From positions 7,783 to 71,782 of the forward strand of contig JAIORP010000100.1 of NCBI GenBank assembly GCA_021108075.1: 64,000 nucleotides of DNA. The letters are read 5' to 3'. How positions within the stretch are numbered: position 1 is the stretch's first letter; every line of letters begins with the position of its first letter. Shown here one piece after another: positions 34,113-64,000 of the stretch. This DNA comes from Candidatus Omnitrophota bacterium. GTDB taxonomy: Bacteria > Omnitrophota > Gorgyraeia > Zapsychrales > Zapsychraceae. Under the pieces are notes generated by a model. The model saw only the letters and a list, made by a program, of their open reading frames with translations, had not been told where the DNA came from and did no database searches. The position numbers were made by a program, and so were the translations under genes.

Positions 34113-34123
34113 AGGAGCAAGTT

Positions 34124-35887: not shown

Positions 35888-35899
35888 TTTTTTATAGAT

Positions 35900-37366: not shown

Positions 37367-37374
37367 ATTGATTC

Positions 37375-40226: not shown

Positions 40227-40253
40227 AGTACATTATTTGATGAGGCTGACGTT

Positions 40254-40604
40254 ATGGCAAAATTGATAACTATCGGAATCAGTTGTTTTTTAATCCTCAG
40301 CGTTGTTGAACTCATTCGAAAAGAGAAATTGACGTTCAAATACGCATCGTTGTGGCTTACCGTGTCATTCCTGGCGCTTGTATTCGCGATATTCAACTCC
40401 TGGCTGTTTAAGTTGTCTGAAGTTTTAGGCTTCGTCCTGCCCAGTAATTTTATATTTTTTTCATTGTTGATCGTTTTAACATTGCTTATATTTGTGGTCA
40501 CGCTGTTTTTATGTCAACAAAATCGGCATAATGACACGATCGCTCAAAAGATTGCTTTATTAGAGCATGAATTGGAATCATTGAAGAAAAATAAAAAAAG
40601 ATAA
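40254..40604 (+). CDS. Small membrane protein (DUF2304-like, GT2-associated)
   Basis: 116 aa with 3 TM helices and a coiled C-terminus. Typical genomic partner of DPM1-like GT2 enzymes. Confidence 0.5.
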   Translation: MAKLITIGISCFLILSVVELIRKEKLTFKYASLWLTVSFLALVFAIFNSWLFKLSEVLGFVLPSNFIFFSLLIVLTLLIFVVTLFLCQQNRHNDTIAQKIALLEHELESLKKNKKR

Positions 40605-40605
40605 C

Positions 40606-41286: not shown

Positions 41287-41310
41287 ATTCCGATAGATGC
41301 ATTCAGCCAC

Positions 41311-50013: not shown

Positions 50014-53000
50014 ATGAGAAAAGATAAAAAATCAAAATTACAATATATAATACATAGCAGCTTAAGATCTGTTATGATATTTATTTTCTTGTTCGCCCAA
50101 TTACCCGCACCTGTTTTTGCGCAATACACAGGTGGGAGCTATGGGGGTGATGAGGAAAGTTCGCTTGGTAATGATATTTATACAGGTGGATCACAGGATG
50201 ATACCTTTATCGGTCATTCATCTCAAGGGGAGGCTCTGTCTCACGGACAAGCGGCGTATCTTGTTTTCAGTCAAATGCCATCGGAGTCATCTCACCACAA
50301 TTCCTTTGAACGTCAACCCATTGTTGAGATCCGTGACTCGAATAATAATTTCGTTGCTACGGACAATACAACACAGGTCACCATTGAGTTGTTAAGCAAC
50401 CCGGGCAATTCTCAACTGATCGGTACAAAGACAATCTCTGTCCAAGGCGGCCAGGCCCTGTACACGGACTTGCAAATTCCTAAACCCGCTGAAATGTACA
50501 CTCTCATCGCAACTTCTCCAGGTCTAACCTCGGCTATATCCGATGCTTTTAATGTTCAACCCGGATCCAGTCCGCGTATTATCGCTTCTTGGGATGATTC
50601 TGCCAATTCGGGTTCGGGTGGTTACACACTTTTTATCTGGTTAGAAGATAATAGCGCAACAGGCCGCGTTGATCTGGATAACAATGGCGGAAACGCTGAT
50701 GACCGTTGTCAGGTAACGATTTATGATCCTGATGGAACAACCCAGGATTCCACTTTTGATTCTGGCGGTGGCTCGCCGACGCTGACCTTAGACACAAATG
50801 TCGAATGGTTTTATTCTGCGTCGGGCGCCTGGCAACCAGACCTTCAGGATGATTCTTATGTCGCTAATGTGGTTATCACGGAAGACCCGGACGTCGCTAA
50901 TACGGTCTACAGTGCGTATGCTTCTTTAGATGTTATCAAACCCACATTAGAAGACCTGGGGGATGTCAACTGGGATGAGCTTGCTCAAATCAGATCCAAA
51001 ACGCAGACCATCAATTGGGATGATATTACGGCTGTTAAAGCCCAAACGGATACCATCAATTGGGATGATATTGATGTGCTCGTTACGAATGTTGCTGATA
51101 TTAAAGATGTCACGAATCAATTGGATCCGGTCGACTGGGCGAATATTCAATCCATGGCCGATGCCGGTATCAATTGGGATGATCTAAAAATTTTAACTGA
51201 GGCGGGTATCAATTGGGAAGACCTGGATTCCCTGTCAAACATGAACATCAACTGGGATGACATTGATGTCTTGTCTAAGACGGGAATCAATTGGAATGAT
51301 ATTCAAGTGTTAAGTGATGAGGGCATTAACTGGGCTGACATTGACGTCTTAACGGACGCGGGTATCAACTGGTCCGATATTCAAGTTTTATCAGACCTGG
51401 GAGTTAATTGGACGGATTTTGATGCGTTAACCAAGGCCGGATTGAATTGGACGGATTTTGACGTGATGACAAAAGCGGGGATCAATTGGCTTGATATGGC
51501 CGTTATGACAGGTGCGAGCGTCGATTGGGAGGAGTATATCAATTGGAGTGATTTAGCTGTTTTGTCAAAGGCGAATGTCAATTGGGATGATTTAACCGCG
51601 TTGTCCAATGCGAATGTTAATTGGGATGATTGGCAAGTCTTGAGTGAATCCGGGATCAATTGGGATGACCTTGCTTCTATGGCGACGGCAAGTATTAACT
51701 GGTCTGACCTGGACGTGATGTCAGATGCGGGCATTAATTGGTCTGACATTGATGTGTTAAGCGAAGCTGGTGTGAACTGGCTTGACATTGGGGTGTTCAG
51801 TCAGGCGGGTATTAATTGGGCGGATATCGATGTGTTAAGCGACGCGGGTATTAATTGGGAAGATATCGAGGCCATGACCGAAGCGGGTATCAATTGGGCG
51901 GATATCGATGTGTTAAGCGAAGCGGGTATCAATTGGGAAGACATTGAAGCCTTAACAGCGGCGGGCATCAACTGGGAAGATTTTGAATCTTTAACCGAAG
52001 CCGGAATCAATTGGGAAGATGTTGAAGTATTGAGCGAGTCCGGAGTGAATTGGTTGGATATTGGTGAATTGTCAGACGCGGGTATTAATTGGTTGGATAT
52101 TGACGTGATGAGTGATGCGGGTATCAACTGGTCTGATATTGAAACGATGTCGAATGAAGGCGTCAATTGGCAAGATATCAATATACTCAGTGATGCGGGT
52201 GTGAATTGGGAAGATATTGATGCCCTCTCTGAAGCGGGTGTGAATTGGGAAGATATTGAAGCCATGAGTGAAGCGAACGTCAATTGGGCGGATATTGCTG
52301 TTTTGTCGTCGAAGGGAATAAACTGGACTGATGTTGATGTTTTAAGTGACAGCGGCATCAATTGGGAAGACATACGCATATTAAGTGAAGCGGGTATTAA
52401 CTGGGAAGACATTGAGGTCCTGAGTGAAGCGGGCATCAATTGGTCTGATATCGATGTTCTCAGTGGTACGGGTATTAACTGGTCAGATATTGACGTGATG
52501 GCCAGGGTAGGTATTAATTGGCAGGATGTGGATGTTCTCAGTGATGCGGGCATTAATTGGATAGATGTGAACCGGTTGTCTCGGGCAGGCGTGAATTGGG
52601 AAGACATTGACCTTATGTCTGAGGCAGGCGTGAATTGGGAAGACCTTGAGGCATTGAGTGTGGCGGGTATCAATTGGCAGGACATTAATGTTCTTAGTGA
52701 TGCGGGCGTGAATTGGGAAGATATCGAAGTCATGTCGGAGGCGGGCATCAACTGGGAAGATATCGAGGTCTTTAGCGAGGCGGGTATCAATTGGCAGGAC
52801 ATGGATGTTCTTAGTGATTCAGGTATCAATTGGCAAGATATCGGAGTGATGGCAGCAGCGGGTGTCAATTGGGCTGATATCGATGTGTTGAGTGAGGCGG
52901 GTGTGAATTGGGAAGATCTCGAGGCGTTAACAGAAGCGGGCATCAATTGGTCGGACATTGATGTATTGACTGACGCTGGAATTAACTGGGAAGACCTTGA

Positions 53001-56000
53001 AGTCTTGACGGAAGCCGGTGTAAATTGGGAAGATTTAGAATTATTAACAGAAGCAGGTGTTAATTGGCAGGACATTGGAATTCTTAGCGCTGCCGGTATT
53101 AATTGGGAAGATGTTGAGGCCATGAGTGAAGCGGGTGTGAATTGGTCTGATATCGATGTCCTCAGTGATACGGGGATTAACTGGGAAGATATTGAGGCGA
53201 TGACGGAATCCGGTGTGAACTGGTCGGACCTCGACGTGATGAGCGAGGCGGGCATCAATTGGGAAGATATTGAAGCGATGACGGAAGCGGGAATTAACTG
53301 GCAAGATATTGATGTTTTAAGTGACGCCGGAATCAATTGGGAGGATATTGAACTCTTAAGTGAGGCAGGTGTGAATTGGGAAGATCTCGAGGCGTTAACA
53401 GAAGCGGGCATCAATTGGTCGGACATCGATGTGTTGAGCGGTGCGGGTATCAATTGGGAAGATGTCGAAGCTCTGAGTGAAGCGGGCGTCAACTGGCAGG
53501 ATATCGGTATGCTCTCCGACGCGGGCATCAATTGGGAAGACCTCGAAGTCTTAAGTGAGGCGGGCGTCAACTGGCAGGATATCGGTATGCTCTCCGACGC
53601 GGGAATTAATTGGGAAGACGTCGATGTGTTGAGCGGTGCGGGCATCAATTGGGAAGATATCGAAGCTCTGAGTGAAGCGGGCGTCAACTGGCAGGATATC
53701 GGTATGCTTTCCGACGCGGGCATCAATTGGTCGGATATCGATGTGTTGAGCGGTGCGGGCATCAATTGGGAAGACCTTGAAGCGCTAACAGAATCCGGTA
53801 TCAATTGGGAAGACCTGGATGTCATGAGCGGTGCGGGCATCAATTGGGAAGACATTGGGGTGCTGACCGAATCAGGCGTCAATTGGCTGGACGTTGACAT
53901 GATGAGTGACGCGGGCATTAATTGGGAAGATATTGAAGTCTTGACGGAAGCTGGCATTAACTGGACGGACATTGACGTGATGAGTGATGCAGGGGTCAAT
54001 TGGACGGATGTCAACCGCCTGACAAGAGCGGGCGTCAATTGGGAGGATCTTGGCGCTATGTCCTCAACCGGAATCAATTGGACGGATATAAATATGTTGA
54101 GTGAAGCGGGCATCAATTGGCAAGACATTGAGGTTATGACAGAAGCGGGTATCAACTGGTTGGATATTGATGTGTTGAGTGAAGCGGGGATTAACTGGGA
54201 AGACATTGAAGTCTTAAGTGAGGCCGGCATTAATTGGGAAGATATTGATGTGTTGAGTGACGCCGGTATCAATTGGCAAGATATTGATATTTTAAGTGAA
54301 GCCGGTATTAACTGGGAGGATATCGAAGCCTTGACAGAAGCGGGTATCAACTGGCAGGATGTGGGTGTCATGAGTGATGTCGGTGTGAATTGGCAAGATC
54401 TGCGGACGTTAAGTACGGTAGGTGTGAATTGGGAAGACATTGAAGTGATGACGGAAGCGGGCATTAATTGGCAAGACATCGATGTGTTGACTGAAGCTGG
54501 CATTAATTGGGAAGATATTGAATTGATGAGTGACGCGGGCATCAATTGGCAAGACATCGGCATGTTTTCCGACGCGGGTATCAATTGGGAAGATGTCGAA
54601 GTTTTAACCCGATCCGGTATTAACTGGGAAGATATTGAAGTCCTCTCCGAGACAGGCATCAATTGGGCGGACATGGGCGTTCTCAGTGGTTCGGGAATCA
54701 ATTGGGAAGACATTGAAATGATGAGTGAAGCCGGGATCAATTGGTTAGATATTGATATTTTAACCGATGCTGGAATTAACTGGGAAGACCTTGAGGTTAT
54801 GACAGAGGCGGGTGTTAACTGGCAGGATATTGATGCTTTAAGTGAGGCCGGAATCAATTGGGAAGATATTGAATTGATGAGTGAAGCTGGCATCAATTGG
54901 GAAGACATTGAAATGATGAGTGAAGCCGGAATCAACTGGGAAGACCTTGAGATCTTGACGGAAGCCGGAATCAATTGGATCGATATTGACACGATGAGTG
55001 CGTCCGGAATTAATTGGGAAGATGTTGGGACATTGACCGAGGCTGGAATTAATTGGCAGGACATCGGTGTCTTAAGTGACACCGGAATCAATTGGGAAGA
55101 CATCCATGTTATGTCTAAGGCCGGTGTGAATTGGGAAGACATTGAAATGATGAGCGAAGCCGGAATCAATTGGGTGGATATCGATGTCATGTCTGAAACA
55201 GGTATCAACTGGCAGGATATCAATGCTTTGAGCGTCGCAGGTATTAACTGGCAAGATGTTGACCTTCTCTCCGACGCCGGGATTAATTGGGAAGACATTG
55301 AATCCATGTCCGACGCCGGTGTCAATTGGCAAGATATTGGGGTGTTAAGTGATGTCGGTGTTAATTGGGAAGACATTGGGGTGTTAAGTGATGCGGGTGT
55401 CAATTGGGAAGACATTGAGGCCATGACAGAAGCGGGTATCAACTGGCAGGATATCAATGCCCTAACGGTTGCCGGAATCAACTGGCAAGATATAGACGTT
55501 CTCTCCGACTCCGGCGTGAATTGGGAAGATATTGAAGCCATGAGCGAAGCGGGTATCAATTGGACGGATATTGATGCGTTAAGTGAAACGGGAATCAATT
55601 GGGAAGACATTGAAATGATGAGCGAAGCCGGCGTGAATTGGGAAGACATTGAAATTCTTTCTGAAAGTGGAATCAACTGGACGGACATGAATGTGCTTTC
55701 TCTATCGGGTATCAATTGGGAAGATATCGAAGTGATGAGCGACTCCGGCGTGAATTGGGAAGACATTGAAATGATGAGCGAAGCCGGCGTGAATTGGAAT
55801 GATATCGGCATGTTGACTTTATCCGGAGTCAATTGGCAGGATGTTGAAGTGATGACTGAAGCGGGTATCAATTGGTTGGACATAGATATGATGAGTGGCG
55901 CCGGGATTAATTGGGAAGATGTCGAGGCGCTGACGGAGGCCGGTGTTAATTGGTCGGATATCAATATATTGTCTGACGCCGGGATTAATTGGGAAGACAT

Positions 56001-59000
56001 TGAAGTGCTGACAAAGGCCGGGGTCAATTGGGAAGATTTTGAAGCTTTATCAGAGTCAGGTATCAACTGGCAGGATATTGAAGTCTTGACGGAAGCGGGC
56101 ATCAACTGGCAGGATTTAGATGTTATGAGTGGTTCCGGTATTAATTGGGAGGACATTGAGGTCTTAAGCGAAGCCGGTATCAATTGGGAAGACATTGAGA
56201 TGATGAGTGAAGCCGGAGTGAATTGGTTTGACATTGACGCCCTTTCCGACGCTGGTATTAACTGGGAAGATATTGAAGTCCTAACAAAAGCCGGTATCAA
56301 CTGGGAAGATGTTGAAGTCATCAGCGAGACCGGTATCAACTGGGAAGACATTGAGGCCATGACAGAAGCGGGCATCAACTGGCAGGATATAGACATTTTA
56401 AGTGAGGCCGGAGTTAATTGGGAAAACATTGAAGCGATGACGGAAGCGGGAATTAATTGGATTGATATTGATGTGATGAGTGATACGGGCATCAATTGGG
56501 AAGACATTGAAATGATGAGTGAAGCCGGAGTGAATTGGTCTGACATTGACGCCCTCTCCGACGCTGGTATTAACTGGGAAGACATCGAAGTCCTGAGTGA
56601 GGCGGGGATCAATTGGGAAGATGTCGAAGCTCTGAGTGAAGCGGGCGTCAATTGGGAAGACATTGAAGTCCTGAGTGAGGCCGGAATTAATTGGGAAGAC
56701 ATTGAAGTGATGAGTGAAGCGGGTGTGAACTGGGAGGATATTGAAGTCTTGAGTGAAGCGGGAATTAACTGGGAAGACATTGAAGCGATGAGTGAAGCGG
56801 GTATAAATTGGCTGGATATTGATGCCTTAAGTGAAACGGGTGTTAATTGGGAAGACATTGAGGTCATGACGAAAGCGGGAGTGAACTGGACAGATATTGA
56901 TATCCTGAGCGAGGCGGGGATCAATTGGGAAGATGTCGAGGCGATGAGTGAAGCGGGGATTAATTGGGAAGACATTGACATCTTAAGCGAGGCGGGGATC
57001 AATTGGGAAGACGTCGAAGTGCTGACCGAGTCCGGTATCAATTGGCAGGACATTAACATGTTGAGTGGCGCGGGCATCAATTGGGCAGACATCGATGTTC
57101 TAAGTGCTGCCGGCATCAATTGGGAAGATATTGAAGTGATGACGGAATCAGGTATTAATTGGTTGGATATTGAAGCCTTAAGCGCAACCGGCATCAATTG
57201 GCAGGATATTGACGTATTGAGTGAGGCCGGCGTCAATTGGGAAGACATTGAGATCATGACGAGAGCCGGTGTTAATTGGCAAGATATTGATATGCTGAGT
57301 GATGCAGGTATCAATTGGGAAGATATCGAAGTGATGAGCGAGGCCGGGATCAACTGGCTGGATATTGATGTGTTGAGTGAAGCGGGGATCAATTGGGAAG
57401 ATATCGAAGTGATGAGCGAGGCCAGTATCAATTGGGCAGACATCGATGTTTTAAGTGCTGCCGGCATCAATTGGGAAGATATTGAAACCATGAGTGATGC
57501 CGGGATCAATTGGGAAGACATTGAAACCATGAGTGAAGCGGGCATCAACTGGCAGGACATGGATGCCTTGAGTTCAGCCGGGATCAACTGGCAGGACATG
57601 GATGTCTTGAGTTCAGCCGGGATTAACTGGCTAGATATCGAATTGATGAGTGAAGCGGGGATCAACTGGCAGGATATCGATTTATTAAGTGAAGCGGGTA
57701 TCAATTGGGAAAATATTGAAGCGATGACCGAAGCGGGCATCAACTGGCAAGATATTGATATGTTGAGTGAAGCGGGTATCAACTGGGAAGATGTTGAAGT
57801 GATGAGTGCCGCGGGCATCAACTGGGAAGATGTTGAGTCTTTGAGTGAGGCGGGTATTAACTGGGAAGATGTTGAAGTGATGAGTGAAGCGGGCGTGAAC
57901 TGGGAAGATATTGGAGTCTTGAGTGAGGCGGGCGTTAATTGGGAAGACATCGAAGCCTTGAGTGAAGCGGGCATCAACTGGCAGGATATCGAAGTGATGA
58001 GCGAGGCGGGTATCAATTGGAAGGATATTGATGTGCTGAGTGAGGCGGGCATTAATTGGGAAGATATTGAAGTCATGACCGAAGCAGGTATCAATTGGGA
58101 AGATATTGATGTGCTGAGCGCGACGGGCATCAACTGGGAAGATATCAAGGCGTTGAGTGAAGCGGGCGTGAACTGGGAAGACATTGACGCGTTGAGTGAA
58201 GCGGGCATCAACTGGGAAGACATTGACGTGCTGAGTGAAGCGGGCATCAACTGGGAAGACATTGACGTGCTGAGTGAAGCGGGCATCAACTGGGAAGACA
58301 TTGACGTGCTGAGTGAAGCGGGCATCAACTGGGAAGATATTGGAGTCTTGAGTGCCGCGGGTATCAATTGGGAAGACATTGAAGTGATGAGCGAGTCTGG
58401 TGTGAATTGGGCTGATCTCAATACGATGTCTATGGTCGGTGTGAATTGGTCTGATCTCAATTATATGTCGGGAGTAGGCGTTAACTGGGATAACCTGACA
58501 CAATTGACAAATTCAGGCATCAATTGGGATGATATCGGTGCCATGAGCGATGCGGGCATTAATTGGATTGACATTAATGAGATGAGTGAAGCGGGCATCA
58601 ATTGGACAGATATCGACGTCATCAGTGATACGGGCATTAACTGGGAAGATATTGAAGTGCTGAGTGAAGCGGGCGTGAACTGGGAAGATATTGGAGTCTT
58701 GAGTGCCGCGGGCATCAATTGGGAAGACATTGAAGTGATGAGCGAGTCTGGTGTGAATTGGGCTGATCTCAATACGATGTCTATGGTCGGTGTGAATTGG
58801 TCTGATCTCAATTATATGTCGGGAGTAGGCGTTAACTGGGATAACCTGACACAATTGACAAATTCAGGCATCAATTGGGATGATATCGGTGCCATGAGCG
58901 ATGCGGGCATTAATTGGACGAACATCAATGATTTATCAACAGCAGGTATCAACTGGAATGATATTGATGTGATGAGTGATACGGGCATTAACTGGACAGA

Positions 59001-62000
59001 TTTTGGTCAATTATCGACATCCGGCGTTAATTGGAGCGACATCGGTGTGATGAGTGATGCTGGCATTAATTGGGAAGACATCGATGTGATGAGTTCGGCG
59101 GGTATTAATTGGGAAGACATTGAAACCTTAAGCGAAGCGGGTGTAAACTGGTCGGATATCGACATATTGTCGAGTGCGGGCATCAATTGGGAAGACATTG
59201 AGGTTATGACCGAGGCGGGCATCAACTGGTATGATGTTGATGCGCTTTCAGGTGCGGGCATCAATTGGGAAGACATCGAGGTTATGACCGAGGCGGGTAT
59301 TAATTGGGAAGATATCGAGTTTTTGAGTGAATCCGGAATTAACTGGCAAGACATAGATGTGTTAAGCGAAACAGGGATTAACTGGTCGGACATTCAAGCA
59401 TTAACCACCTCCGGTATCAACTGGAAAGACATAGACGTCATGTCAAGTGCGGGCATCAATTGGCAGGACATCGATGTGTTATCTGAATCGAATATTAACT
59501 GGTCTAATATTTATGAGATGTCTTCCAACGGTATCAACTGGAGCGATATCGGTGTCATGAGTACCATCAATATCAATTGGTCTGATTTGCAGGCCTTGTC
59601 GACAGCAAGCATTAACTGGCAGGATATCGATGTGCTGAGTTCGGTCGGCATCAATTGGGAAGATATTGAGGCCATGGCAGGGGCGGGTATCAATTGGCAG
59701 GACATTGATGTTCTTTCTGATTCGGGCATCAATTGGCAAGACATTGACGTGATGAGTGAAGCGGGTGTGAATTGGGCGGATATCGATGTGTTGTCAGGCG
59801 CGGGCATTAATTGGGAAGATATGGAGGCGCTGACCCGGTCCGGTGTTAACTGGCAAGACATTCAGGTTCTCAGTGAAGCGGGTATTAACTGGGAAGACAT
59901 TGAAGCCATGACGGAATCAGGGATTAATTGGCAAGATATTGACGTGATGAGTTCCTCCGCTATTAATTGGAATAATATTTATGATATGACAATTGCTGGT
60001 GTTAATTGGGATGATATCGGGGCTCTTTCTTCCGCCGGTATTAATTGGACAGATATTGATGTTTTATCTGATTCCGGCGTGAACTGGAGCAATATCTATG
60101 AACTTTCCTCGTCTGGAGTCAATTGGACGGATATTGGCGTGATGTCCTCTTCGGGCATCAATTGGAATGATATCGACATGTTAAGTGAGGCGGGCATTAA
60201 TTGGGAAGATATTGAAGCCATGACAGAAGCTGGTATTAATTGGCAGGATATTAACGCCTTCAGCGACGCTGGTATCAATTGGGAAGCCCTTGAAGTCATG
60301 ACGGAAGCCGGTATCAACTGGGAAGACATCGAAGTCCTCAGTGAGGCGGGCATTAACTGGGAAGATATTGAATCCATGACAGAATCCGGTATTAATTGGG
60401 AAGACATTGAAGTGCTGAGTGAGGCGGGTGTGAATTGGTCTGATCTCAATACGATGTCTATGGTCGGTGTGAATTGGTCTGATCTCAATTATATGTCCGG
60501 GGTTGGGGTCAATTGGGAAAATTTGACCGAGTTAACGAATTCTGGCGTGAACTGGAATGATATCGGTGTGATGAGTGACGCGGGAATTAATTGGACGAAT
60601 ATGAATGAACTGTCTACCTCTGGTATCAATTGGGAAGAAATTGATGTCTTAAGTGACGCGGGTGTGAACTGGACGGATATTGAAGTCCTTTCAAAGGCGG
60701 GTGTAAATTGGAGTGATGTTAACGTGCTGAGTTCTGCCGGCGTGAATTGGGAAGATTTTGAAGTGATGACCGGGACCGGAGTTAACTGGGAGGATTTTGA
60801 AGTGATGACGAAGGCTGGTGTGAATTGGTCTGATGTTGATATTTTAAGCGATGCGGGTGTGAATTGGGAAGATATTGAGGTCATGACAGAATCGGGTATC
60901 AACTGGCAGGACATGAATATCCTCAGTGAATCCGGTATTAATTGGGAAGATATTGAGGTTATGACGGACGCCGGTGTGAATTGGTCAGACATTGGCGTTT
61001 TATCGTTAATCGGCATCAACTGGCAAGACATTGATGTGCTGAGTGAAGCCGGTATTAATTGGCAGGACATCAATGTGATGAGTGCTGCTGGCATCAACTG
61101 GCAGGACATCAATGTGATGAGCGATACCGGCATCAATTGGGAAGACATTGAGGCTATGACAAAAGCCGGCGTCAATTGGCAGGATATAGATGTTTTCAGT
61201 TCAGCCGGTATCAACTGGGAAGATATCGAGGCGATGTCAGGTGCGGGCATTAATTGGGAAGACATTGAGGTCTTATCCGAATCCGGCATTAACTGGGAAG
61301 ACATTGAGGTCATGACCGAGGCCGGTGTGAATTGGCAAGACATCAACGCGTTGAGTTTAGCGGGTATCAATTGGGAAGACATCGGTGTCTTAAGTGACGC
61401 GGGAATCAATTGGTCTGACATTGATGTGATGAGCTCGTCGGGAATCAACTGGTCGAATATCAATGACTTAACACAATCCGGCATCAATTGGTCCGACATT
61501 GATGTGATGAGCGATACCGGCATCAATTGGACCAACATCGGCGAATTATCTTCCGCGGGTATCAATTGGGATGACATTGACATCATGAGCGACGCGGGTG
61601 TGAACTGGACAGATATTAATCGGTTGTCAAAAGCCGGTATTAACTGGGAAGACATTAATATATTAAGTGACGCGGGCATTAATTGGGAAGACATTGAAGT
61701 GATGTCAGAAACGGGTATTAATTGGGAAGATATCGAAGTGATGTCGGAATCTGGCATTAATTGGGAAGACATTGAAGTGATGTCAGAAGCCGGTGTGAAC
61801 TGGGAAGACATTGAACTCCTCTCTGAGACGGGCATCAATTGGCTGAATATCGGCGAGCTCTCTTCGTCAGGCGTCAATTGGGAAGATATCGATGTGATGA
61901 GCGGGTCTGGCATCAATTGGGCCGATATCGGCGCGCTTTCTTCGGCCGGAATTAATTGGGAGGATATTAACGTATTTTCGGATACAGGCATTAATTGGGA

Positions 62001-64000
62001 AGACATTGAAGCCATGAGCGACGCGGGTATCAACTGGCAAGACATTGGCGCGATGAGTGGTGCCGGTGTGAATTGGGAGGATATTGAAGCCTTGAGTGAG
62101 GCTGATATCAATTGGCAAGATATCGACATCATGAGCTCGACCGGAATTAATTGGACGAATATCGATGTGTTGTCCAGGGCAGGTATCAATTGGTCTGATA
62201 TTGATGTGCTGAGTGATTCTGGAATCAACTGGTCTGATATCGGGGTGCTTTCCGTAGCCGGCATTAATTGGAGCGATATTGACGTGCTGACTGACACGGG
62301 TATTAATTGGGAAGACGTGAAGGCGATGAGTGCCGCGGGGATTAATTGGGATGATCTTAATGTGATGAGTGATGCCTCGATCAATTGGACCAATATTGAT
62401 GAATTATCTTCAGTCGGTATTAATTGGGAAGATATGAATGTGATGAGTGACCAGGGAATCAATTGGTCAAATATCGGGGAGATGTCTTCAGCCGGTATTA
62501 ATTGGGATGACATCAACATGATGACCGAGGCTGGAGTGAATTGGGCGGATATCGGTGTTCTGAGTGGTGCCAGTATTAATTGGCAGGATATTGAACAATT
62601 AAGTGAAGCCGGGGTGAATTGGGCGGATATCAGTGTGTTTTCACAATCCGGAATCAATTGGAGTGACATTGATGTGATGAGTGACTCCGGTATTAATTGG
62701 GAGGATATTGAGGTCCTCAGTGATGCCGGAATCAATTGGGTAGATTTTGACGCATTGACTTCTATTGGTATTAATTGGACCAATATTGATGAATTATCCA
62801 AAGCCGGAATCAATTGGGACGACATTGATGTGATGAGTGATATGGGGATCAACTGGACGAATATGGGTGACTTAACCACTTCGGGTATTAATTGGAGTGA
62901 TGTGAACGTGATGAGCGACGCGGGCATCAATTGGACGAATATCGGCGAAATGTCGTCTGCAAATATCAATTGGAACGACATTGATATGATGAGCGATACA
63001 GGCATCAATTGGGAAGATATCAATGTGATGAGCGACGCAGGCGTGAACTGGTCAAACATTGGTGCGTTATCAGCGTCGGGTATCAATTGGGATGACATTG
63101 ACATCATGAGCGACGCGGGTGTGAACTGGTCCAATATTGGTGAATTGTCGTCGTCCGGCATCAATTGGGACGACATTGATGTCATGAGTGAGTCCGGCAT
63201 TAACTGGGCGAATATCGGCGCTTTATCTGCTTCTGGAATCAACTGGACAGATATCAACGTGATGAGTGACGCGGGCGTCAATTGGGCGGATATTGGGGAA
63301 TTGAGCAGTGTCGGTATTAACTGGGATGATATCCATGTCTTAAGTGATACCGGTATTAACTGGGAAGATGTTAAAGCGATGAGTCAATCCAGCATCAACT
63401 GGGATAACATCGACATGATGAGTGACGCGGGTATTAATTGGACGGATATGAACCGGCTCTCTACCGCGGGTGTTAACTGGGAAGATATTAATGCGATGAG
63501 TGACGCGGGCATCAACTGGGAAGACATTGAAGTGATGAGCGGTGCGGGCGTCAACTGGGAGGATATCGAAGTGATGAGCGACGCGGGCATCAATTGGGAA
63601 GATATCGAAGCGTTATCAGAGGCGGGCGTCAACTGGGACGATATTGAAGTGCTGTCAGAAACAGGTGTTAATTGGTCGAATATTGGGGAATTGTCCTCTT
63701 CAGGGATTAATTGGTCTAACATTGAAGTGATGAGCGGTGCGGGTATTAATTGGTCTGATATTGGGGAGCTATCTTCTGCGGGAGTTAACTGGCAGGATAT
63801 CGATGTCATGAGTGACGCGGGCATTAATTGGTCTGATATCATGACATTATCTTCGGCCGGTATTAATTGGCAAGATATTGATGTGATGAGTGATACGGGT
63901 GTGAATTGGACGGATATCGGCGAGCTATCTGCATCTGGTATCAATTGGGAAGATATCGACGTGATGAGTGACGCGGGGATCAACTGGGAAGACATTGAAG
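50014..64000 (+). CDS. Giant secreted acidic tandem-repeat protein, 5' portion (>=4,662 codons in window, continues beyond 64000)
   Basis: ATG 50014 is preceded by an in-frame TGA. Signal peptide MRKDKKSKLQYIIHSSLRSVMIFIFLFAQLPAPVFA. The ~300-aa non-repetitive N-terminal region has Ig/Big-like beta character. From ~50960 on, the same frame reads uninterrupted 13-aa units (consensus SEAGINWEDIEVL) to the window end. Frame phase checked at 51172, 57001, 60511 and 63982, all congruent with 50014. Confidence 0.8.
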   Translation, partial: MRKDKKSKLQYIIHSSLRSVMIFIFLFAQLPAPVFAQYTGGSYGGDEESSLGNDIYTGGSQDDTFIGHSSQGEALSHGQAAYLVFSQMPSESSHHNSFERQPIVEIRDSNNNFVATDNTTQVTIELLSNPGNSQLIGTKTISVQGGQALYTDLQIPKPAEMYTLIATSPGLTSAISDAFNVQPGSSPRIIASWDDSANSGSGGYTLFIWLEDNSATGRVDLDNNGGNADDRCQVTIYDPDGTTQDSTFDSGGGSPTLTLDTNVEWFYSASGAWQPDLQDDSYVANVVITEDPDVANTVYSAYASLDVIKPTLEDLGDVNWDELAQIRSKTQTINWDDITAVKAQTDTINWDDIDVLVTNVADIKDVTNQLDPVDWANIQSMADAGINWDDLKILTEAGINWEDLDSLSNMNINWDDIDVLSKTGINWNDIQVLSDEGINWADIDVLTDAGINWSDIQVLSDLGVNWTDFDALTKAGLNWTDFDVMTKAGINWLDMAVMTGASVDWEEYINWSDLAVLSKANVNWDDLTALSNANVNWDDWQVLSESGINWDDLASMATASINWSDLDVMSDAGINWSDIDVLSEAGVNWLDIGVFSQAGINWADIDVLSDAGINWEDIEAMTEAGINWADIDVLSEAGINWEDIEALTAAGINWEDFESLTEAGINWEDVEVLSESGVNWLDIGELSDAGINWLDIDVMSDAGINWSDIETMSNEGVNWQDINILSDAGVNWEDIDALSEAGVNWEDIEAMSEANVNWADIAVLSSKGINWTDVDVLSDSGINWEDIRILSEAGINWEDIEVLSEAGINWSDIDVLSGTGINWSDIDVMARVGINWQDVDVLSDAGINWIDVNRLSRAGVNWEDIDLMSEAGVNWEDLEALSVAGINWQDINVLSDAGVNWEDIEVMSEAGINWEDIEVFSEAGINWQDMDVLSDSGINWQDIGVMAAAGVNWADIDVLSEAGVNWEDLEALTEAGINWSDIDVLTDAGINWEDLEVLTEAGVNWEDLELLTEAGVNWQDIGILSAAGINWEDVEAMSEAGVNWSDIDVLSDTGINWEDIEAMTESGVNWSDLDVMSEAGINWEDIEAMTEAGINWQDIDVLSDAGINWEDIELLSEAGVNWEDLEALTEAGINWSDIDVLSGAGINWEDVEALSEAGVNWQDIGMLSDAGINWEDLEVLSEAGVNWQDIGMLSDAGINWEDVDVLSGAGINWEDIEALSEAGVNWQDIGMLSDAGINWSDIDVLSGAGINWEDLEALTESGINWEDLDVMSGAGINWEDIGVLTESGVNWLDVDMMSDAGINWEDIEVLTEAGINWTDIDVMSDAGVNWTDVNRLTRAGVNWEDLGAMSSTGINWTDINMLSEAGINWQDIEVMTEAGINWLDIDVLSEAGINWEDIEVLSEAGINWEDIDVLSDAGINWQDIDILSEAGINWEDIEALTEAGINWQDVGVMSDVGVNWQDLRTLSTVGVNWEDIEVMTEAGINWQDIDVLTEAGINWEDIELMSDAGINWQDIGMFSDAGINWEDVEVLTRSGINWEDIEVLSETGINWADMGVLSGSGINWEDIEMMSEAGINWLDIDILTDAGINWEDLEVMTEAGVNWQDIDALSEAGINWEDIELMSEAGINWEDIEMMSEAGINWEDLEILTEAGINWIDIDTMSASGINWEDVGTLTEAGINWQDIGVLSDTGINWEDIHVMSKAGVNWEDIEMMSEAGINWVDIDVMSETGINWQDINALSVAGINWQDVDLLSDAGINWEDIESMSDAGVNWQDIGVLSDVGVNWEDIGVLSDAGVNWEDIEAMTEAGINWQDINALTVAGINWQDIDVLSDSGVNWEDIEAMSEAGINWTDIDALSETGINWEDIEMMSEAGVNWEDIEILSESGINWTDMNVLSLSGINWEDIEVMSDSGVNWEDIEMMSEAGVNWNDIGMLTLSGVNWQDVEVMTEAGINWLDIDMMSGAGINWEDVEALTEAGVNWSDINILSDAGINWEDIEVLTKAGVNWEDFEALSESGINWQDIEVLTEAGINWQDLDVMSGSGINWEDIEVLSEAGINWEDIEMMSEAGVNWFDIDALSDAGINWEDIEVLTKAGINWEDVEVISETGINWEDIEAMTEAGINWQDIDILSEAGVNWENIEAMTEAGINWIDIDVMSDTGINWEDIEMMSEAGVNWSDIDALSDAGINWEDIEVLSEAGINWEDVEALSEAGVNWEDIEVLSEAGINWEDIEVMSEAGVNWEDIEVLSEAGINWEDIEAMSEAGINWLDIDALSETGVNWEDIEVMTKAGVNWTDIDILSEAGINWEDVEAMSEAGINWEDIDILSEAGINWEDVEVLTESGINWQDINMLSGAGINWADIDVLSAAGINWEDIEVMTESGINWLDIEALSATGINWQDIDVLSEAGVNWEDIEIMTRAGVNWQDIDMLSDAGINWEDIEVMSEAGINWLDIDVLSEAGINWEDIEVMSEASINWADIDVLSAAGINWEDIETMSDAGINWEDIETMSEAGINWQDMDALSSAGINWQDMDVLSSAGINWLDIELMSEAGINWQDIDLLSEAGINWENIEAMTEAGINWQDIDMLSEAGINWEDVEVMSAAGINWEDVESLSEAGINWEDVEVMSEAGVNWEDIGVLSEAGVNWEDIEALSEAGINWQDIEVMSEAGINWKDIDVLSEAGINWEDIEVMTEAGINWEDIDVLSATGINWEDIKALSEAGVNWEDIDALSEAGINWEDIDVLSEAGINWEDIDVLSEAGINWEDIDVLSEAGINWEDIGVLSAAGINWEDIEVMSESGVNWADLNTMSMVGVNWSDLNYMSGVGVNWDNLTQLTNSGINWDDIGAMSDAGINWIDINEMSEAGINWTDIDVISDTGINWEDIEVLSEAGVNWEDIGVLSAAGINWEDIEVMSESGVNWADLNTMSMVGVNWSDLNYMSGVGVNWDNLTQLTNSGINWDDIGAMSDAGINWTNINDLSTAGINWNDIDVMSDTGINWTDFGQLSTSGVNWSDIGVMSDAGINWEDIDVMSSAGINWEDIETLSEAGVNWSDIDILSSAGINWEDIEVMTEAGINWYDVDALSGAGINWEDIEVMTEAGINWEDIEFLSESGINWQDIDVLSETGINWSDIQALTTSGINWKDIDVMSSAGINWQDIDVLSESNINWSNIYEMSSNGINWSDIGVMSTININWSDLQALSTASINWQDIDVLSSVGINWEDIEAMAGAGINWQDIDVLSDSGINWQDIDVMSEAGVNWADIDVLSGAGINWEDMEALTRSGVNWQDIQVLSEAGINWEDIEAMTESGINWQDIDVMSSSAINWNNIYDMTIAGVNWDDIGALSSAGINWTDIDVLSDSGVNWSNIYELSSSGVNWTDIGVMSSSGINWNDIDMLSEAGINWEDIEAMTEAGINWQDINAFSDAGINWEALEVMTEAGINWEDIEVLSEAGINWEDIESMTESGINWEDIEVLSEAGVNWSDLNTMSMVGVNWSDLNYMSGVGVNWENLTELTNSGVNWNDIGVMSDAGINWTNMNELSTSGINWEEIDVLSDAGVNWTDIEVLSKAGVNWSDVNVLSSAGVNWEDFEVMTGTGVNWEDFEVMTKAGVNWSDVDILSDAGVNWEDIEVMTESGINWQDMNILSESGINWEDIEVMTDAGVNWSDIGVLSLIGINWQDIDVLSEAGINWQDINVMSAAGINWQDINVMSDTGINWEDIEAMTKAGVNWQDIDVFSSAGINWEDIEAMSGAGINWEDIEVLSESGINWEDIEVMTEAGVNWQDINALSLAGINWEDIGVLSDAGINWSDIDVMSSSGINWSNINDLTQSGINWSDIDVMSDTGINWTNIGELSSAGINWDDIDIMSDAGVNWTDINRLSKAGINWEDINILSDAGINWEDIEVMSETGINWEDIEVMSESGINWEDIEVMSEAGVNWEDIELLSETGINWLNIGELSSSGVNWEDIDVMSGSGINWADIGALSSAGINWEDINVFSDTGINWEDIEAMSDAGINWQDIGAMSGAGVNWEDIEALSEADINWQDIDIMSSTGINWTNIDVLSRAGINWSDIDVLSDSGINWSDIGVLSVAGINWSDIDVLTDTGINWEDVKAMSAAGINWDDLNVMSDASINWTNIDELSSVGINWEDMNVMSDQGINWSNIGEMSSAGINWDDINMMTEAGVNWADIGVLSGASINWQDIEQLSEAGVNWADISVFSQSGINWSDIDVMSDSGINWEDIEVLSDAGINWVDFDALTSIGINWTNIDELSKAGINWDDIDVMSDMGINWTNMGDLTTSGINWSDVNVMSDAGINWTNIGEMSSANINWNDIDMMSDTGINWEDINVMSDAGVNWSNIGALSASGINWDDIDIMSDAGVNWSNIGELSSSGINWDDIDVMSESGINWANIGALSASGINWTDINVMSDAGVNWADIGELSSVGINWDDIHVLSDTGINWEDVKAMSQSSINWDNIDMMSDAGINWTDMNRLSTAGVNWEDINAMSDAGINWEDIEVMSGAGVNWEDIEVMSDAGINWEDIEALSEAGVNWDDIEVLSETGVNWSNIGELSSSGINWSNIEVMSGAGINWSDIGELSSAGVNWQDIDVMSDAGINWSDIMTLSSAGINWQDIDVMSDTGVNWTDIGELSASGINWEDIDVMSDAGINWEDIE
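50960..64000 (+). repeat. Tandem array of ~330 x 39-nt units (coding, period 13 aa), including perfect triple unit and a 351-nt higher-order repeat
   Basis: Example unit GCGGGCATCAACTGGGAAGACATTGACGTGCTGAGTGAA, present 3x identical at ~58200-58316. 58330-58566 is near-identical to 58681-58917 (offset 351 = 9 x 39). Confidence 0.9.

What the first reader, a model, noticed from the sequence alone, without database searches (positions are those of the whole stretch)
50014..64000. Giant secreted protein built from ~330 tandem 13-aa acidic Trp-containing repeats (SEAGINWEDIEVL), running off the window
Directly visible: a single + frame opens at ATG 50014 and shows no stop for the remaining ~14 kb. 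After a signal peptide and a ~300-aa beta-rich N-terminal region, it becomes a near-perfect 39-nt periodic array. Each unit has one invariant Trp (xGINWxDI), about 4 acidic and no basic residues, and hydrophobics at fixed positions (I, W, I, V/M, L). Over 13 kb no indel breaks the period, which implies strong purifying selection on frame. The visible part alone would carry ~330 Trp and a net charge of roughly -1000. I do not recognise the unit as any described repeat class. It is not RTX GGxGxD, RHS/YD, pentapeptide, LRR, TPR, HEAT, Ig, cadherin or a collagen-like repeat. The fixed Gly plus alternating hydrophobics suggest a beta-solenoid with two units per coil, or another fibrous fold. The acidity suggests divalent-cation binding or an S-layer/adhesin-like surface polymer. 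Giant repetitive ORFs are a hallmark of a few lineages such as Omnitrophota and some Bacteroidota, which may hint at lineage.
Basis: partly seen in the sequence, partly recalled or inferred. Interest (0 to 1): 0.92.

Follow-up and report, generated by a model that had tools for sequence, protein, structure and literature searches.

The report
Giant Trp-repeat surface protein, Omnitrophota
This is a real gene for a giant exported protein made of more than 330 copies of a 13-residue tryptophan-containing unit; it belongs to a conserved but undescribed family in Omnitrophota bacteria that always sits beside outer-membrane secretion-pore genes, and it is most likely a long cell-surface fibre.

Summary
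From ATG 50014 the + frame has 4,662 codons and no stop up to the window end. It contains 331 Trp-anchored 13-aa units (consensus SEAGINWEDIEVL), 316 of them in one unbroken register. Third-codon-position variation shows it is coding. Units are only about 64% identical at DNA level, so this is an old array and not an assembly artefact.

It is not an orphan. About 40 Omnitrophota species carry orthologues with the same layout: signal peptide, two Ig-like domains, the array, and a C-terminal coiled coil. They also share one gene order: GT2, GspC-like, secretin, TPR, two FGE-like genes, then the giant gene. In relatives, ATP synthase and MshE/GspF/pseudopilin genes follow. Arrays range from about 35 to more than 1,200 units. 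No Pfam, NCBIfam or PDB family matches, and two papers on Omnitrophota giant proteins do not describe this unit.

The beta-solenoid idea is not supported. Two AlphaFold runs (low confidence in the array) and the helix-capping pattern of the conserved residues suggest one short helix plus a G-I-N turn per unit. The extreme acidity is specific to some lineages, not to the family.

Most likely it is a Sec-exported, secretin-associated surface fibre or tether. I rate it a new variant of a known kind.

The parts
50014..64000 (+). 5' part (4,662 codons) of the giant INW-repeat protein gene; the ORF runs off the window end
   Evidence: No stops in this frame. Orthologues occur in about 40 Omnitrophota genomes.
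50014..50121 (+). Predicted Sec signal peptide (aa 1-36: basic n-region RKDKKSK, hydrophobic core, VFA|QY)
   Evidence: Read directly from the sequence. AF2 places a helix at aa 8-27. The segment aligns with orthologue N-termini. No signal-peptide predictor was available.
50122..50250 (+). Gly/Ser/Asp-rich linker with the conserved [YF]xGGSxxG motif right after the signal peptide
   Evidence: G40 and G41 are nearly invariant in alignment A2. AF2 gives pLDDT below 50 for aa 32-76.
50251..50931 (+). Two tandem Ig/FN3-like beta-sandwich domains (aa 80-306)
   Evidence: AF2 pLDDT 80-95 in domain 1 (aa 80-190) and about 60-85 in domain 2, all-beta. Foldseek PDB hits at E about 1e-5 include tandem Ig-like proteins such as RbmA, Sap S-layer domains 4-5, cadherins and Fab light chains.
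50950..51117 (+). Transition zone: 15-aa 'KTxTINWDDI' units plus a longer helix
   Evidence: W spacings of 15, 15 and 25. The AIKAKTDTINWxDI motif is conserved in orthologues.
51118..51642 (+). First 13 regular units and the conserved irregular segment MTGASVDWEEYINW...DDWQVL (aa 499-550)
   Evidence: The same irregularity is present in orthologues, which shows orthology of the array start.
51643..64000 (+). Unbroken 39-nt / 13-aa array holding 316 complete units, consensus S-E-A-G-I-N-W-E-D-I-E-V-L
   Evidence: Mean unit identity is 64% at nt level and 59% at aa level.
58273..58935 (+). The only recent internal duplication: 8 units at 58273-58584 against 58624-58935 (95% identical), with an older third copy at 60301-60495
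   Evidence: TRF finds a 351-nt period. Unit-identity matrix. This is the only place where local mis-assembly is a realistic concern.
48218..49900 (+). FGE-sulfatase-fold protein 2 (560 aa, pI 4.6, N-terminal hydrophobic signal-like segment), immediately upstream
   Evidence: Pfam PF03781, E 1.3e-20. PDB FGE hits at about 2e-8. Syntenic in 33 loci.
46622..48214 (+). FGE-sulfatase-fold protein 1 (530 aa, pI 4.6)
   Evidence: Pfam PF03781, E 1.6e-7. Syntenic in 33 loci.
45585..46469 (+). TPR protein in the position of a secretin pilotin (weak PilW/Tgl/GltE-like hits)
   Evidence: Syntenic in 34 loci.
43960..45552 (+). Outer-membrane secretin (PilQ/GspD/MshL-like)
   Evidence: Pfam Secretin 6.9e-49 and Secretin_N. 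NCBIfam PilQ 1e-74 and GspD 3.7e-71, both below their cut-offs. Syntenic in 34 loci at 42-72% identity.
43350..43979 (+). 209-aa protein, weakly GspC-like
   Evidence: Pfam T2SSC E 0.0077, below cut-off. Syntenic in 26 loci.
42392..43297 (+). AAA_22 ATPase (ExeA/GspA/MshM-like)
   Evidence: Pfam AAA_22 1.6e-23. NCBIfam TIGR03015 at 187 bits, below its cut-off of 324.5. Syntenic in 16 loci.
39492..42318 (+). GT2, DUF2304-like 116-aa membrane protein, methyltransferase and GT2: a conserved glycosylation block upstream of the secretin module
   Evidence: DUF2304 is annotated in homologous loci. Synteny.

Best explanation
The window holds the first 4,662 codons of a giant exported structural protein from an Omnitrophota bacterium. 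It belongs to a conserved, unnamed family.

The family's layout is: Sec signal peptide, a Gly-rich linker, two Ig-like beta-sandwich domains, a very long array of 13-residue units (S-x-A-G-[IV]-N-W-x-D-[ILF]-x-V-[LM]), and, in complete relatives, a coiled-coil C-terminal region of about 200 aa ending in ..[VI]x[AS]W[FYL]E.

Each unit most likely forms one short amphipathic helix (W7 to A3 of the next unit). In this reading N6 is the N-cap and D9 the N3 capping-box residue. I5 and I10 form a hydrophobic staple, and G4 is the C-cap. The helices are joined by a G-I-N turn. Hundreds of such helices would stack through I5, W7, I10 and L13 into an elongated rod. Positions 2, 8 and 11 face solvent and set the surface charge, which is extremely acidic here.

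Inferred mechanism: the protein crosses the inner membrane by Sec. It is then displayed on or released from the cell through the co-encoded secretin/GspC-like/pilotin module. The MshE/GspF/pseudopilin genes found downstream in relatives would take part. It would serve as a fibre or tether, tens to hundreds of nanometres long, for contact with host or prey cells or for a protective polyelectrolyte coat.

Shown: gene reality, family, architecture, synteny and lineage. Inferred: the helical fold (moderate confidence), the export route and the function.
For: Gene reality:
- No stops over 4,662 codons and a third-position entropy excess.
- Units are diverged (64% nt identity); the longest exact repeat is 205 nt.

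Family and lineage:
- 47 hits to the repeat, and the named ones are all Omnitrophota 'hypothetical protein, partial'.
- 48 loci in species-representative genomes, about 40 of them with INW arrays. Arrays exceed 4,000 aa wherever DNA is available, including chromosome OY759724.1.
- A JGI gene call of 16,204 aa directly follows P0008.
- 570 related proteins among 1.84 billion representatives.

Architecture:
- AF2 with 21 orthologues gives a signal-like helix, a disordered linker and two beta-sandwiches (pLDDT 80-95 in the first, about 60-85 in the second), then one helix per unit.
- Foldseek hits are tandem Ig-like surface or matrix proteins.
- C-terminal fragments and the complete short members P0050 and P0051 show the coiled-coil end.

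Synteny:
- Secretin, TPR, FGE1 and FGE2 lie directly upstream in 33-34 loci.
- The full locus L053 continues with a 435-aa ORF, ATP synthase, MshE-like ATPase, T2SSF and T2SSG.

Helix reading:
- DSSP helices W7..A3' in both AF2 runs.
- The hydrophobic moment of that segment peaks at 110-120 degrees (0.39-0.44) against 0.22 at 160-180 degrees.
- The only PDB or NCBIfam resemblance is the DMC1/RAD51 N-terminal helix-hairpin-helix 'GINxxD[IV]xxLxxxG', which has the same 13-residue G-to-G spacing.

Exposed charge stripe:
- Position 2 flips between K/R and D/E by lineage, while N6, W7, G4 and D9 stay fixed.

Literature:
- Giant Omnitrophota proteins are typically flanked by T2SS/T4P-like loci and are proposed to mediate prey adhesion (10.1101/2023.11.21.568195; 10.64898/2026.06.07.730766).
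Against: - AF2 confidence in the array is low (pLDDT 46 for 20 units, 45-66 in the second run; pTM 0.20 and 0.35), so inter-helix packing and even the secondary structure are not secure.
- The hydrophobic pattern I5/W7 and I10/V12 is also compatible with short beta-strands, and the whole-array hydrophobicity spectrum peaks at 2.6 aa, which is ambiguous.
- The helix-hairpin-helix resemblance is statistically insignificant (E 0.45; hhalign probability 13%).
- Nothing shows that the protein passes the secretin. T2SS substrates of this size are unknown, and the secretin could serve only the pilus genes.
- No anchor or sorting signal is recognisable, so surface retention is unexplained.
- The C-terminus of this particular gene is outside the window.
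- There are no expression data.
Confidence: 0.55

Rival explanations
1. Beta-solenoid fibre. Two 13-aa units would form one coil of about 26 residues, with Asn and Trp ladders, giving a rigid acidic rod that may bind divalent cations, like RTX or antifreeze solenoids.
For: - Invariant Gly, Asn and Trp and alternating hydrophobics (I5/W7, I10/V12).
- A weak lag-2 similarity excess and 78-nt TRF periods.
- High acidity in this protein.
Against: - Two AF2 runs with different alignments predict no strand in the array, although confidence there is low.
- The conserved residues fit helix-capping motifs.
- The unit has no GGxGxD or DxDxDG cation-binding pattern.
- Acidity is absent in many orthologues.
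Confidence: 0.15
2. Polyanionic cation-binding or matrix protein. In this reading the main role of the array is charge: sequestering Ca2+, Mg2+ or metals, or forming a hydrated, repulsive coat around the cell.
For: - Net charge is about -21 per 100 aa in the array, with pI about 4.05.
- Neighbouring proteins have a median pI of 7.6, so the acidity is specific to this protein and not a feature of the proteome.
- Several other lineages also have -10 to -16 per 100 aa.
Against: - Orthologues with the same architecture and synteny are nearly neutral because they carry K/R at position 2 (L004, L015, L021, L034).
- Charge is therefore an adjustable surface property and not the conserved function.
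- The unit has no recognised metal-binding motif.
Confidence: 0.15
3. Periplasmic or DNA-handling scaffold. The units would be true helix-hairpin-helix motifs that bind nucleic acid or another polymer taken up through the adjacent PilQ-like secretin and T4P machinery, like a giant ComEA.
For: - The local motif resembles the RAD51/DMC1 helix-hairpin-helix.
- The gene sits next to a PilQ/HofQ-like secretin, and MshE/GspF/pilin genes lie nearby in relatives.
- Neutral orthologues place K/R just before the G-[IV]-N hairpin.
Against: - The similarity is not significant.
- This protein is far too acidic to bind DNA directly.
- The tandem Ig-like N-terminal domains and the size are typical of surface proteins.
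- There is no evidence of competence genes in the window.
Confidence: 0.07
4. Artefact. The array would be an assembly expansion or collapse or a non-coding satellite, and the long ORF incidental.
For: - Repeat arrays are prone to mis-assembly.
- An antisense ORF of 2,219 aa also exists at 51801-58460.
- Many orthologous contigs end inside the array.
Against: - Units are only about 64% identical, and there is a single recent 312-nt duplication.
- Variation sits at + frame third codon positions, and only that frame is free of stops.
- The conserved N-terminal domains, synteny and irregularities are shared with about 40 independent assemblies, including a chromosome-level one.
Confidence: 0.03

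Closest known systems
Giant proteins of Omnitrophota next to T2SS/T4P-like loci ('Archaeovorins' and 'Dockerin-type' giants, West-Roberts et al. 2023, bioRxiv 10.1101/2023.11.21.568195; catalogue of Nielsen & Lui 2026, 10.64898/2026.06.07.730766)
   Same: Same phylum. A very long ORF sits directly beside secretin/GspE/GspF/pseudopilin-type genes. Assemblies break inside the repeats. An extracellular adhesion role has been proposed. The 2026 catalogue lists 137 of 916 long proteins as having no database hit, the class this protein would fall into.
   Different: None of the defining domains is present in the visible 4,662 aa: SecA-DEAD, multiple TM segments, HEAT, dockerin, TSP3, enzymes. The protein is almost entirely one 13-aa unit. 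The specific operon (secretin, TPR, two FGE-like genes, giant gene) and the unit are not mentioned in either paper, as far as my text searches show.
Helix-hairpin-helix motif of the RAD51/DMC1 N-terminal domain (e.g. PDB 1v5w, 2zjb; 'LEQCGINANDVKKLEEAG')
   Same: Local pattern L-x-x-x-G-I-N-x-x-D-[IV]-x-x-L-x-x-A-G with 13 residues between the two Gly. In those structures it is a hairpin followed by a helix (my knowledge of the fold), which matches the AF2 helix boundaries here.
   Different: The match is not significant (E 0.45; hhalign probability 13%). There is no DNA-compatible charge. Here every helix is shared by two 'hairpins' in a continuous chain, which is not known for helix-hairpin-helix domains.
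Giant repetitive bacterial adhesins exported by T1SS (RTX adhesins such as LapA, SiiE, MpIBP)
   Same: Sizes of hundreds of kDa to MDa, a monotonous extender region flanked by different terminal domains, an acidic character, and use as a surface tether.
   Different: Those use Ig-like (BIg) extender domains of about 100 aa and C-terminal RTX nonapeptides with a T1SS signal, and they have no Sec signal. This protein has an N-terminal signal peptide, a 13-aa unit, no RTX motif, and secretin rather than ABC/MFP/TolC neighbours.
Short aromatic-containing solenoid repeats that bind ligands between units (choline/cell-wall-binding repeats, PF01473)
   Same: Short units of 13 against about 20 aa, each with conserved Gly and aromatic residues, in long tandem arrays on secreted proteins.
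   Different: No Pfam hit. The consensus is different. Those repeats are beta-hairpins, whereas this unit is predicted to be helical.

Membership tests
Omnitrophota INW-repeat giant protein family (unnamed; defined here by its orthologues) | N-terminal signal peptide, [YF]xGGSxxG motif and tandem beta-sandwich domains alignable with orthologues | tested here: met
   Alignments A2 and A3 show 29-52% identity with invariant columns. AF2 model.
Omnitrophota INW-repeat giant protein family (unnamed; defined here by its orthologues) | 13-aa S-x-A-G-[IV]-N-W-x-D-h-x-V-[LM] array preceded by KTDTINW 15-aa units and carrying the conserved MTGxxVNWxxxINW irregularity | tested here: met
Omnitrophota INW-repeat giant protein family (unnamed; defined here by its orthologues) | Gene order secretin, TPR, FGE-like, FGE-like, giant gene | tested here: met
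   Window genes. The order is conserved in 33-34 loci.
Omnitrophota INW-repeat giant protein family (unnamed; defined here by its orthologues) | C-terminal coiled-coil region ending ..W[FYL]E, followed by the ATP synthase and MshE/GspF/pseudopilin genes | not testable with these tools
   The gene runs off the window. Seen only in relatives.
Archaeovorin / Dockerin-type giant proteins (West-Roberts et al. 2023) | At least 30,000 aa with many TM segments and a SecA-DEAD domain, or dockerin/TSP3/EF-hand repeats | tested here: not met
   None of these Pfam families is found in the 1,394 aa scanned (aa 1-395 and 663-1312), and the rest of the visible 4,662 aa is the same 13-aa unit. The remainder of the protein is unseen, so the length criterion cannot be judged.
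Archaeovorin / Dockerin-type giant proteins (West-Roberts et al. 2023) | Adjacent T2SS/T4P-like secretion locus | tested here: met
   Secretin, a GspC-like protein, an ExeA-like ATPase and a TPR protein lie upstream. GspE/F/G-like genes lie downstream in relatives.
RTX / T1SS giant adhesins | GGxGxDxUx nonapeptide repeats, a C-terminal T1SS signal, no Sec signal, and ABC/MFP/TolC genes nearby | tested here: not met
   The unit consensus has no such motif. An N-terminal signal peptide is present. The neighbours are secretin-type.
Helix-hairpin-helix (HhH) motif proteins | Significant sequence or profile match to an HhH family | tested here: inconclusive
   PDB profile search: DMC1 at E 0.45. 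hhalign against the RAD51 N-terminal domain: probability 13%. No HHH Pfam hit.
Helix-hairpin-helix (HhH) motif proteins | Non-specific DNA backbone binding | not testable with these tools
   A net charge of -21 per 100 aa argues against it for this protein.
Beta-solenoid repeat proteins | Beta-strands stacked coil on coil | tested here: inconclusive
   AF2 predicts helices only in the array, but at pLDDT 45-66. Hydrophobic-moment analysis mildly favours a helix.
EF-hand / dockerin Ca2+-binding repeats | D-x-[DN]-x-[DN]-G 12-residue loop | tested here: not met
   The unit has a single acidic position before G4 and lacks the loop. There is no Dockerin or EF-hand Pfam hit.
Type II secretion substrate | Sec signal and a co-encoded secretin/GspC/E/F/pseudopilin set | tested here: met
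   This is association only.
Type II secretion substrate | Demonstrated secretin-dependent export | not testable with these tools
   This needs genetics or biochemistry.

The most novel reading that the evidence does not exclude
The INW unit would be a new minimal structural repeat: a continuous chain of 13-residue helix-plus-hairpin modules in which each helix is shared by two helix-hairpin-helix-like turns. The chain would build a single-polypeptide rod up to a micrometre long, with more than 1,200 units in relatives. The rod would be exported through a dedicated secretin module, with help from two FGE-fold proteins. Its surface charge would be re-tuned from lineage to lineage, and it would act as the prey- or host-capture tether of nano-sized Omnitrophota. 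Under this reading the units self-associate, which would explain why a gokushovirus-like microvirus carries four INW units on its DNA-pilot protein.
Probability: 0.2. Interest if true: 0.8.

Novelty: new variant of a known kind. Interest (0 to 1): 0.6.

Why it matters
Omnitrophota are widespread, ultra-small bacteria thought to depend on or prey on other cells. How they contact those cells is unknown. Their giant genes are a recognised puzzle, and so far the debate rests mostly on domain annotation.

This family has no annotatable domain, yet it offers several handles:
- It is conserved in about 40 species.
- It sits in a fixed operon with an outer-membrane secretin.
- It has a simple, highly regular unit.

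That makes it a tractable test of whether secretin systems export giant fibres. Short synthetic arrays could be folded, solved and tested for binding.

If the unit is a 13-residue helix-hairpin solenoid, it would be among the shortest helical repeats known. That would interest protein designers.

The lineage-specific charge flips at exposed positions are a natural experiment on how surface electrostatics are tuned.

Tried and rejected
- Pfam and NCBIfam scans of the N-terminus and of a 650-aa repeat block. The only hits were composition- or repeat-driven summed scores with no valid stretch (Ntox33, ACT_6, Lysostaphin_N, recomb_DMC1, RimP). I rejected them as family assignments.
- PDB sequence searches. 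Nothing was significant.
- AF2 on 20 units with an alignment of 15 in-window paralogous segments. pLDDT was 46, so I used it only for secondary structure and ran no fold search on it.
- The afdb50 fold library was unavailable.
- Antisense ORF 51801-58460 (2,219 aa). I rejected it as a by-product of the codon periodicity. That strand has 33 to 396 stops across the region, and the variable nucleotide positions are the third positions of the + frame.
- Halophile-type acidic proteome as the cause of the acidity. Rejected, because the median pI of 43 neighbouring ORFs is 7.6.
- IMG/VR scan for phage-borne INW arrays. None confirmed.
- Search for the window's own contig in JGI metagenomes with a 60-mer from its end. 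No match, so I could not obtain the gene's true length or C-terminus. The window genome is also absent from the GTDB species representatives; the best orthologue is 52% identical.
- Self-BLAST for internal duplications returned nothing usable, so I replaced it with a unit-identity matrix.
- FGE-type modification of the array looks unlikely. The array has no Cys and one Pro, so it has no CxPxR motif. The role of the two FGE-fold proteins stays open. They might act as structural partners, as in GldJ/GldK; that comparison rests on my memory and was not tested.
Full report
**Observation**

Translating window 50014-64000 on the + strand gives 4,662 codons without a stop. The other five frames of the same stretch contain 393, 494, 396, 132 and 33 stops.

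The product has 339 Trp, and 328 of the successive Trp-Trp spacings are exactly 13 residues. Anchoring on Trp gives 331 units from aa 369. From aa 544 to the window end (nt 51643-64000) the register is never broken, holding 316 complete units (317 Trp). Tandem Repeats Finder reports the same 39-nt period, for example 177.9 copies over 51805-58742.

The unit consensus is S-E-A-G-I-N-W-E-D-I-E-V-L. Counts out of 331 are W7 331, N6 328, I/V5 329, S/T1 323, G4 312 and D9 301.

The array has 920 Asp+Glu against 33 Lys+Arg, no Cys and one Pro. That is 2.8 acidic and 0.09 basic residues per unit on average.

The acidic content is 2.8 per unit, not about 4. The start of the array is not perfectly periodic: there are 15-aa units at aa 313-355 and an irregular segment at aa 499-550.

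**Is it a real coding array?**

Across the 316 aligned units, nucleotide-column entropy is 0.83, 0.48 and 1.43 bits at codon positions 1, 2 and 3 of the + frame. Among differing codon pairs, 40% are synonymous. This is the signature of a translated sequence under purifying selection, not of a satellite.

Units are only 64% identical at nucleotide level, and the longest exact repeat is 205 nt. The only recent internal duplication is an 8-unit block, 58273-58584 against 58624-58935, at 95% identity (also TRF period 351). An assembly artefact is therefore very unlikely outside that spot.

A 2,219-aa antisense ORF (51801-58460) is a by-product of the periodic codon usage.

**Relatives**

A 390-aa piece of the array retrieved 47 proteins. 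All the named ones are 'hypothetical protein, partial' from Candidatus Omnitrophota or Omnitrophica MAGs.

These share the whole N-terminal architecture at 29-52% identity, including the irregular segment MTGxxVNWxxxINW. They are therefore orthologues and not just repeat look-alikes.

A scan of one genome per GTDB species found 48 loci, about 40 of which carry INW arrays. Some are labelled Planctomycetales or otherwise by automated pipelines. The best is 52% identical, so the window's own genome is not among them.

Wherever DNA was available the ORF continued to the end of the fetched stretch. It exceeds 4,000 aa in L008, L011, L015, L021, L022 and L035, and L022 comes from a chromosome-level assembly, OY759724.1. 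On a 105-kb JGI contig, the gene call that follows the 582-aa N-terminal fragment P0008 is 16,204 aa long and consists of the same units.

Complete short members also exist: P0050 at 868 aa and P0051 at 900 aa, with about 35 units. I cannot tell whether these are truly short or collapsed by short-read assembly.

An exhaustive profile search of 1.84 billion representative proteins found 570 matches at E<=1e-3 and 37 at E<=1e-30. Some of these carry about 16 degenerate INW units inside other surface-protein architectures, such as P0062, P0065, P0066 and P0070, which have a Gly-rich N-terminal repeat region, and P0062 also has InlB B-repeats.

**Architecture**

AlphaFold2 on the first 600 aa with 21 orthologues gave mean pLDDT 63. 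The model has these parts:
- a hydrophobic helix at aa 8-27, the core of a signal peptide (basic n-region, VFA|QY at aa 36/37, read);
- a disordered Gly/Ser/Asp linker at aa 32-76, carrying the conserved [YF]xGGSxxG motif;
- two beta-sandwich domains at aa 80-306, pLDDT 80-95 in the first and about 60-85 in the second;
- from aa 320, one 9-10-residue helix per unit at pLDDT 45-66.

Foldseek against the PDB matched the beta region to tandem Ig/FN3-like modules at E about 1e-5. Hits include the V. cholerae matrix protein RbmA, B. anthracis Sap S-layer domains 4-5, cadherins and antibody light chains. This is a generic extracellular fold.

C-terminal fragments of relatives (P0010, P0012, P0015, P0017, P0018, P0022, P0023) and the complete P0050 and P0051 show how the array ends. 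It runs into a region of about 200-250 aa that is Ser/Thr-rich and looks coiled-coil by eye, with repeated 'TLFGKI' motifs. The terminus is conserved as ..[VI]x[AS]W[FYL]E, and there is no TM segment or known sorting signal. The corresponding part of this gene lies beyond the window.

**Fold of the unit**

A separate AF2 run on 20 units, using 15 paralogous in-window segments as the alignment, was of low confidence (pLDDT 46, pTM 0.20). It gave the same pattern: a helix from W7 to A3 of the next unit, a G-I-N loop, and no strands.

The conserved residues fit textbook helix-capping rules. This is my inference from established knowledge of capping boxes, hydrophobic staples and Schellman motifs:
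- N6 is the N-cap and D9 the N3 residue of a capping box.
- I5 (N') and I10 (N4) form a hydrophobic staple.
- G4 is the C' residue, with L13 (C3) and I5 (C'') in contact.

The hydrophobic moment of the W7..A3' segment peaks at 110-120 degrees (0.39-0.44), against 0.22 at 160-180 degrees. The whole-array spectrum is ambiguous.

The only resemblance in NCBIfam or the PDB is to the helix-hairpin-helix of the DMC1/RAD51 N-terminal domain ('QDIDLLQKHGINVADIKKLKSVGI', 'LEQCGINANDVKKLEEAG'). It shares G-I-N-x-x-D-[IV]-x-x-L and the 13-residue Gly-to-Gly spacing. It is not significant (E 0.45; hhalign probability 13%), so I treat it as a lead for the local conformation and not as membership.

There is a weak two-unit super-period (aa identity 0.626 at lag 2 against 0.579 at lag 1). 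That would fit antiparallel helix pairs.

Overall I put about 70% on a helical unit. The beta-solenoid proposal is not supported but is not excluded.

**Charge**

Comparison of unit consensus sequences in 16 orthologues shows that N6 and W7 (about 100%), G4, D9, S/T1 and the hydrophobic positions are held. Position 2 is K/R in some lineages (57-81% in L004, L011, L013, L015, L021, L032 and L034) and D/E in others (74-80% in L022 and L035, 64% here).

Net charge of the arrays ranges from -0.4 to -16 per 100 aa. This window is the extreme at about -21. The 43 neighbouring ORFs have a median pI of 7.6, so the acidity is a property of this protein and not of the proteome.

Acidity is thus a tunable surface feature on positions 2, 8 and 11, which form one stripe of the predicted helix. 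It is not the conserved function.

**Genomic context**

All genes of the window are on the + strand. Directly upstream lie the following genes:

| Window coordinates | Gene |
|---|---|
| 39492-42318 | GT2, a DUF2304-like membrane protein, a methyltransferase, GT2 |
| 42392-43297 | AAA_22 ATPase of the ExeA/MshM type |
| 43350-43979 | weakly GspC-like protein |
| 43960-45552 | PilQ/GspD-type secretin |
| 45585-46469 | TPR protein in the position of a pilotin |
| 46622-48214 and 48218-49900 | two acidic FGE-sulfatase-fold proteins with N-terminal hydrophobic, signal-like segments |

tblastn of these proteins against all fetched loci shows the secretin and TPR genes upstream of the INW gene in 34 loci and both FGE-fold genes in 33, in the same order (gene calls).

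In relatives where the 3' end is assembled, the giant gene is followed by one or two unknown ORFs, an F-type ATP synthase operon, and then an MshE-type ATPase, a GspF-type platform protein and pseudopilins.

The family is thus embedded in a T2SS/T4P-like gene set. This agrees with the published observation that giant Omnitrophota genes are flanked by such systems (10.1101/2023.11.21.568195; 10.64898/2026.06.07.730766).

Neither paper describes this unit or this operon in the sections I searched and read. This protein fits neither the 'Archaeovorin' nor the 'Dockerin-type' class. It would belong to the 137 of 916 long proteins with no database hit.

**Most likely function**

Three things are shown: it is a real, conserved, exported giant protein of Omnitrophota; it has Ig-like N-terminal domains and a monotonous array; and it is tightly linked to a secretin module.

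The rest is inferred. After Sec export the protein would be displayed or released through that secretin system, forming a long rod or tether for contact with other cells, or a protective polyelectrolyte layer. If two units form a helical hairpin adding roughly 1 nm, the visible 331 units would span on the order of 150 nm, and a 16,000-aa relative several hundred nm. This is a rough estimate by analogy with helical repeat proteins and was not computed from a model.

I give this overall reading a confidence of about 0.55. The main rivals are a beta-solenoid version of the same idea, a charge-based cation-binding or matrix role, and a periplasmic helix-hairpin-helix-type polymer-handling scaffold.

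**Novelty and score**

The kind is known: giant repetitive Omnitrophota proteins beside T2SS-like loci. The unit, its probable fold, the conserved secretin/TPR/FGE/FGE/giant operon and the lineage-specific charge switching appear to be undescribed. I therefore rate it a new variant of a known kind.

I set interest at 0.6. It stays well above ordinary because the family is uncharacterised, structurally unusual and experimentally tractable.

Noticed in passing
L054 (ENA ERZ1744934 NODE_425, 4,075 nt, coverage about 108x), gene 145-1074 = P0033: This is a gokushovirus-like Microviridae genome, with Chlamy_scaf, Phage_F capsid and a Rep gene. Its VP2/pilot-like protein starts with four 13-aa INW units (..DVLSKTGVNWVDLNTMTLAGVNWSD..). 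A virus seems to have captured the host repeat, which hints that the units self-associate or that the host array is reachable by the virus.
   Followed up: partly
P0062, P0065, P0066, P0070: About 16 degenerate INW-type 13-aa units occur as an internal module in unrelated secreted proteins of 800-1,400 aa. These have a Gly-rich (GGLVG-type) N-terminal repeat region, and P0062 has InlB B-repeat domains. The unit therefore behaves as a portable spacer module outside the giant family.
   Followed up: partly
P0055 (796 aa) and loci L046, L048, L051, L052 (CPR bacteria and a Bathyarchaeia MAG): The 15-17-aa motif 'AIKAKTDxINWxDV' that precedes the array here is itself repeated many times in other secreted proteins. 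One of them has MG2 and dockerin domains. The motif reaches beyond Omnitrophota.
   Followed up: no
P0074 (997 aa): A BlaR1/M56-type membrane peptidase with a long C-terminal array of 16-17-aa units 'EIKEYGVLGIKPEYVxEMKxxGY'. It is another short helix-hairpin-like repeat, picked up by the INW profile.
   Followed up: no
L053 13933-19336; L002 2724-7554; L003 12945-18081: In relatives an F-type ATP synthase operon (the first large subunit followed by epsilon in L053 and L003, then c, OSCP/delta, gamma and the second large subunit) is wedged between the giant gene and the MshE/GspF/pseudopilin genes. This is an odd and conserved placement for an ATP synthase.
   Followed up: no
L022, L024, L027, L033, L037, L041: In a subset of species the two FGE-fold genes are missing, and the INW ORF instead starts about 1,000 aa further upstream, right after the TPR gene. 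These genes have a different, longer N-terminal region, which I did not examine.
   Followed up: no
window 15741-26550: A chemotaxis-type signalling cluster on the same strand: an MCP (15741-18302), a CheA with duplicated Hpt (20877-23846), and a response-regulator/histidine-kinase hybrid (25357-26550). This is notable for a lineage thought to be host-attached.
   Followed up: no
window 33000-38091 and 32417-32490: Glycine cleavage genes gcvT, gcvH, gcvPA and gcvPB plus a lipoate-protein ligase lie just upstream of the locus. The same gcvP-LplA junction precedes the locus in L053. A tRNA gene lies at 32417-32490.
   Followed up: no
window 73-1608, 2213-3598, 4699-6369: Three ORFs of 461-556 aa with no Pfam hit. 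The first has a lipoprotein-like N-terminus (..LFSSGC).
   Followed up: no
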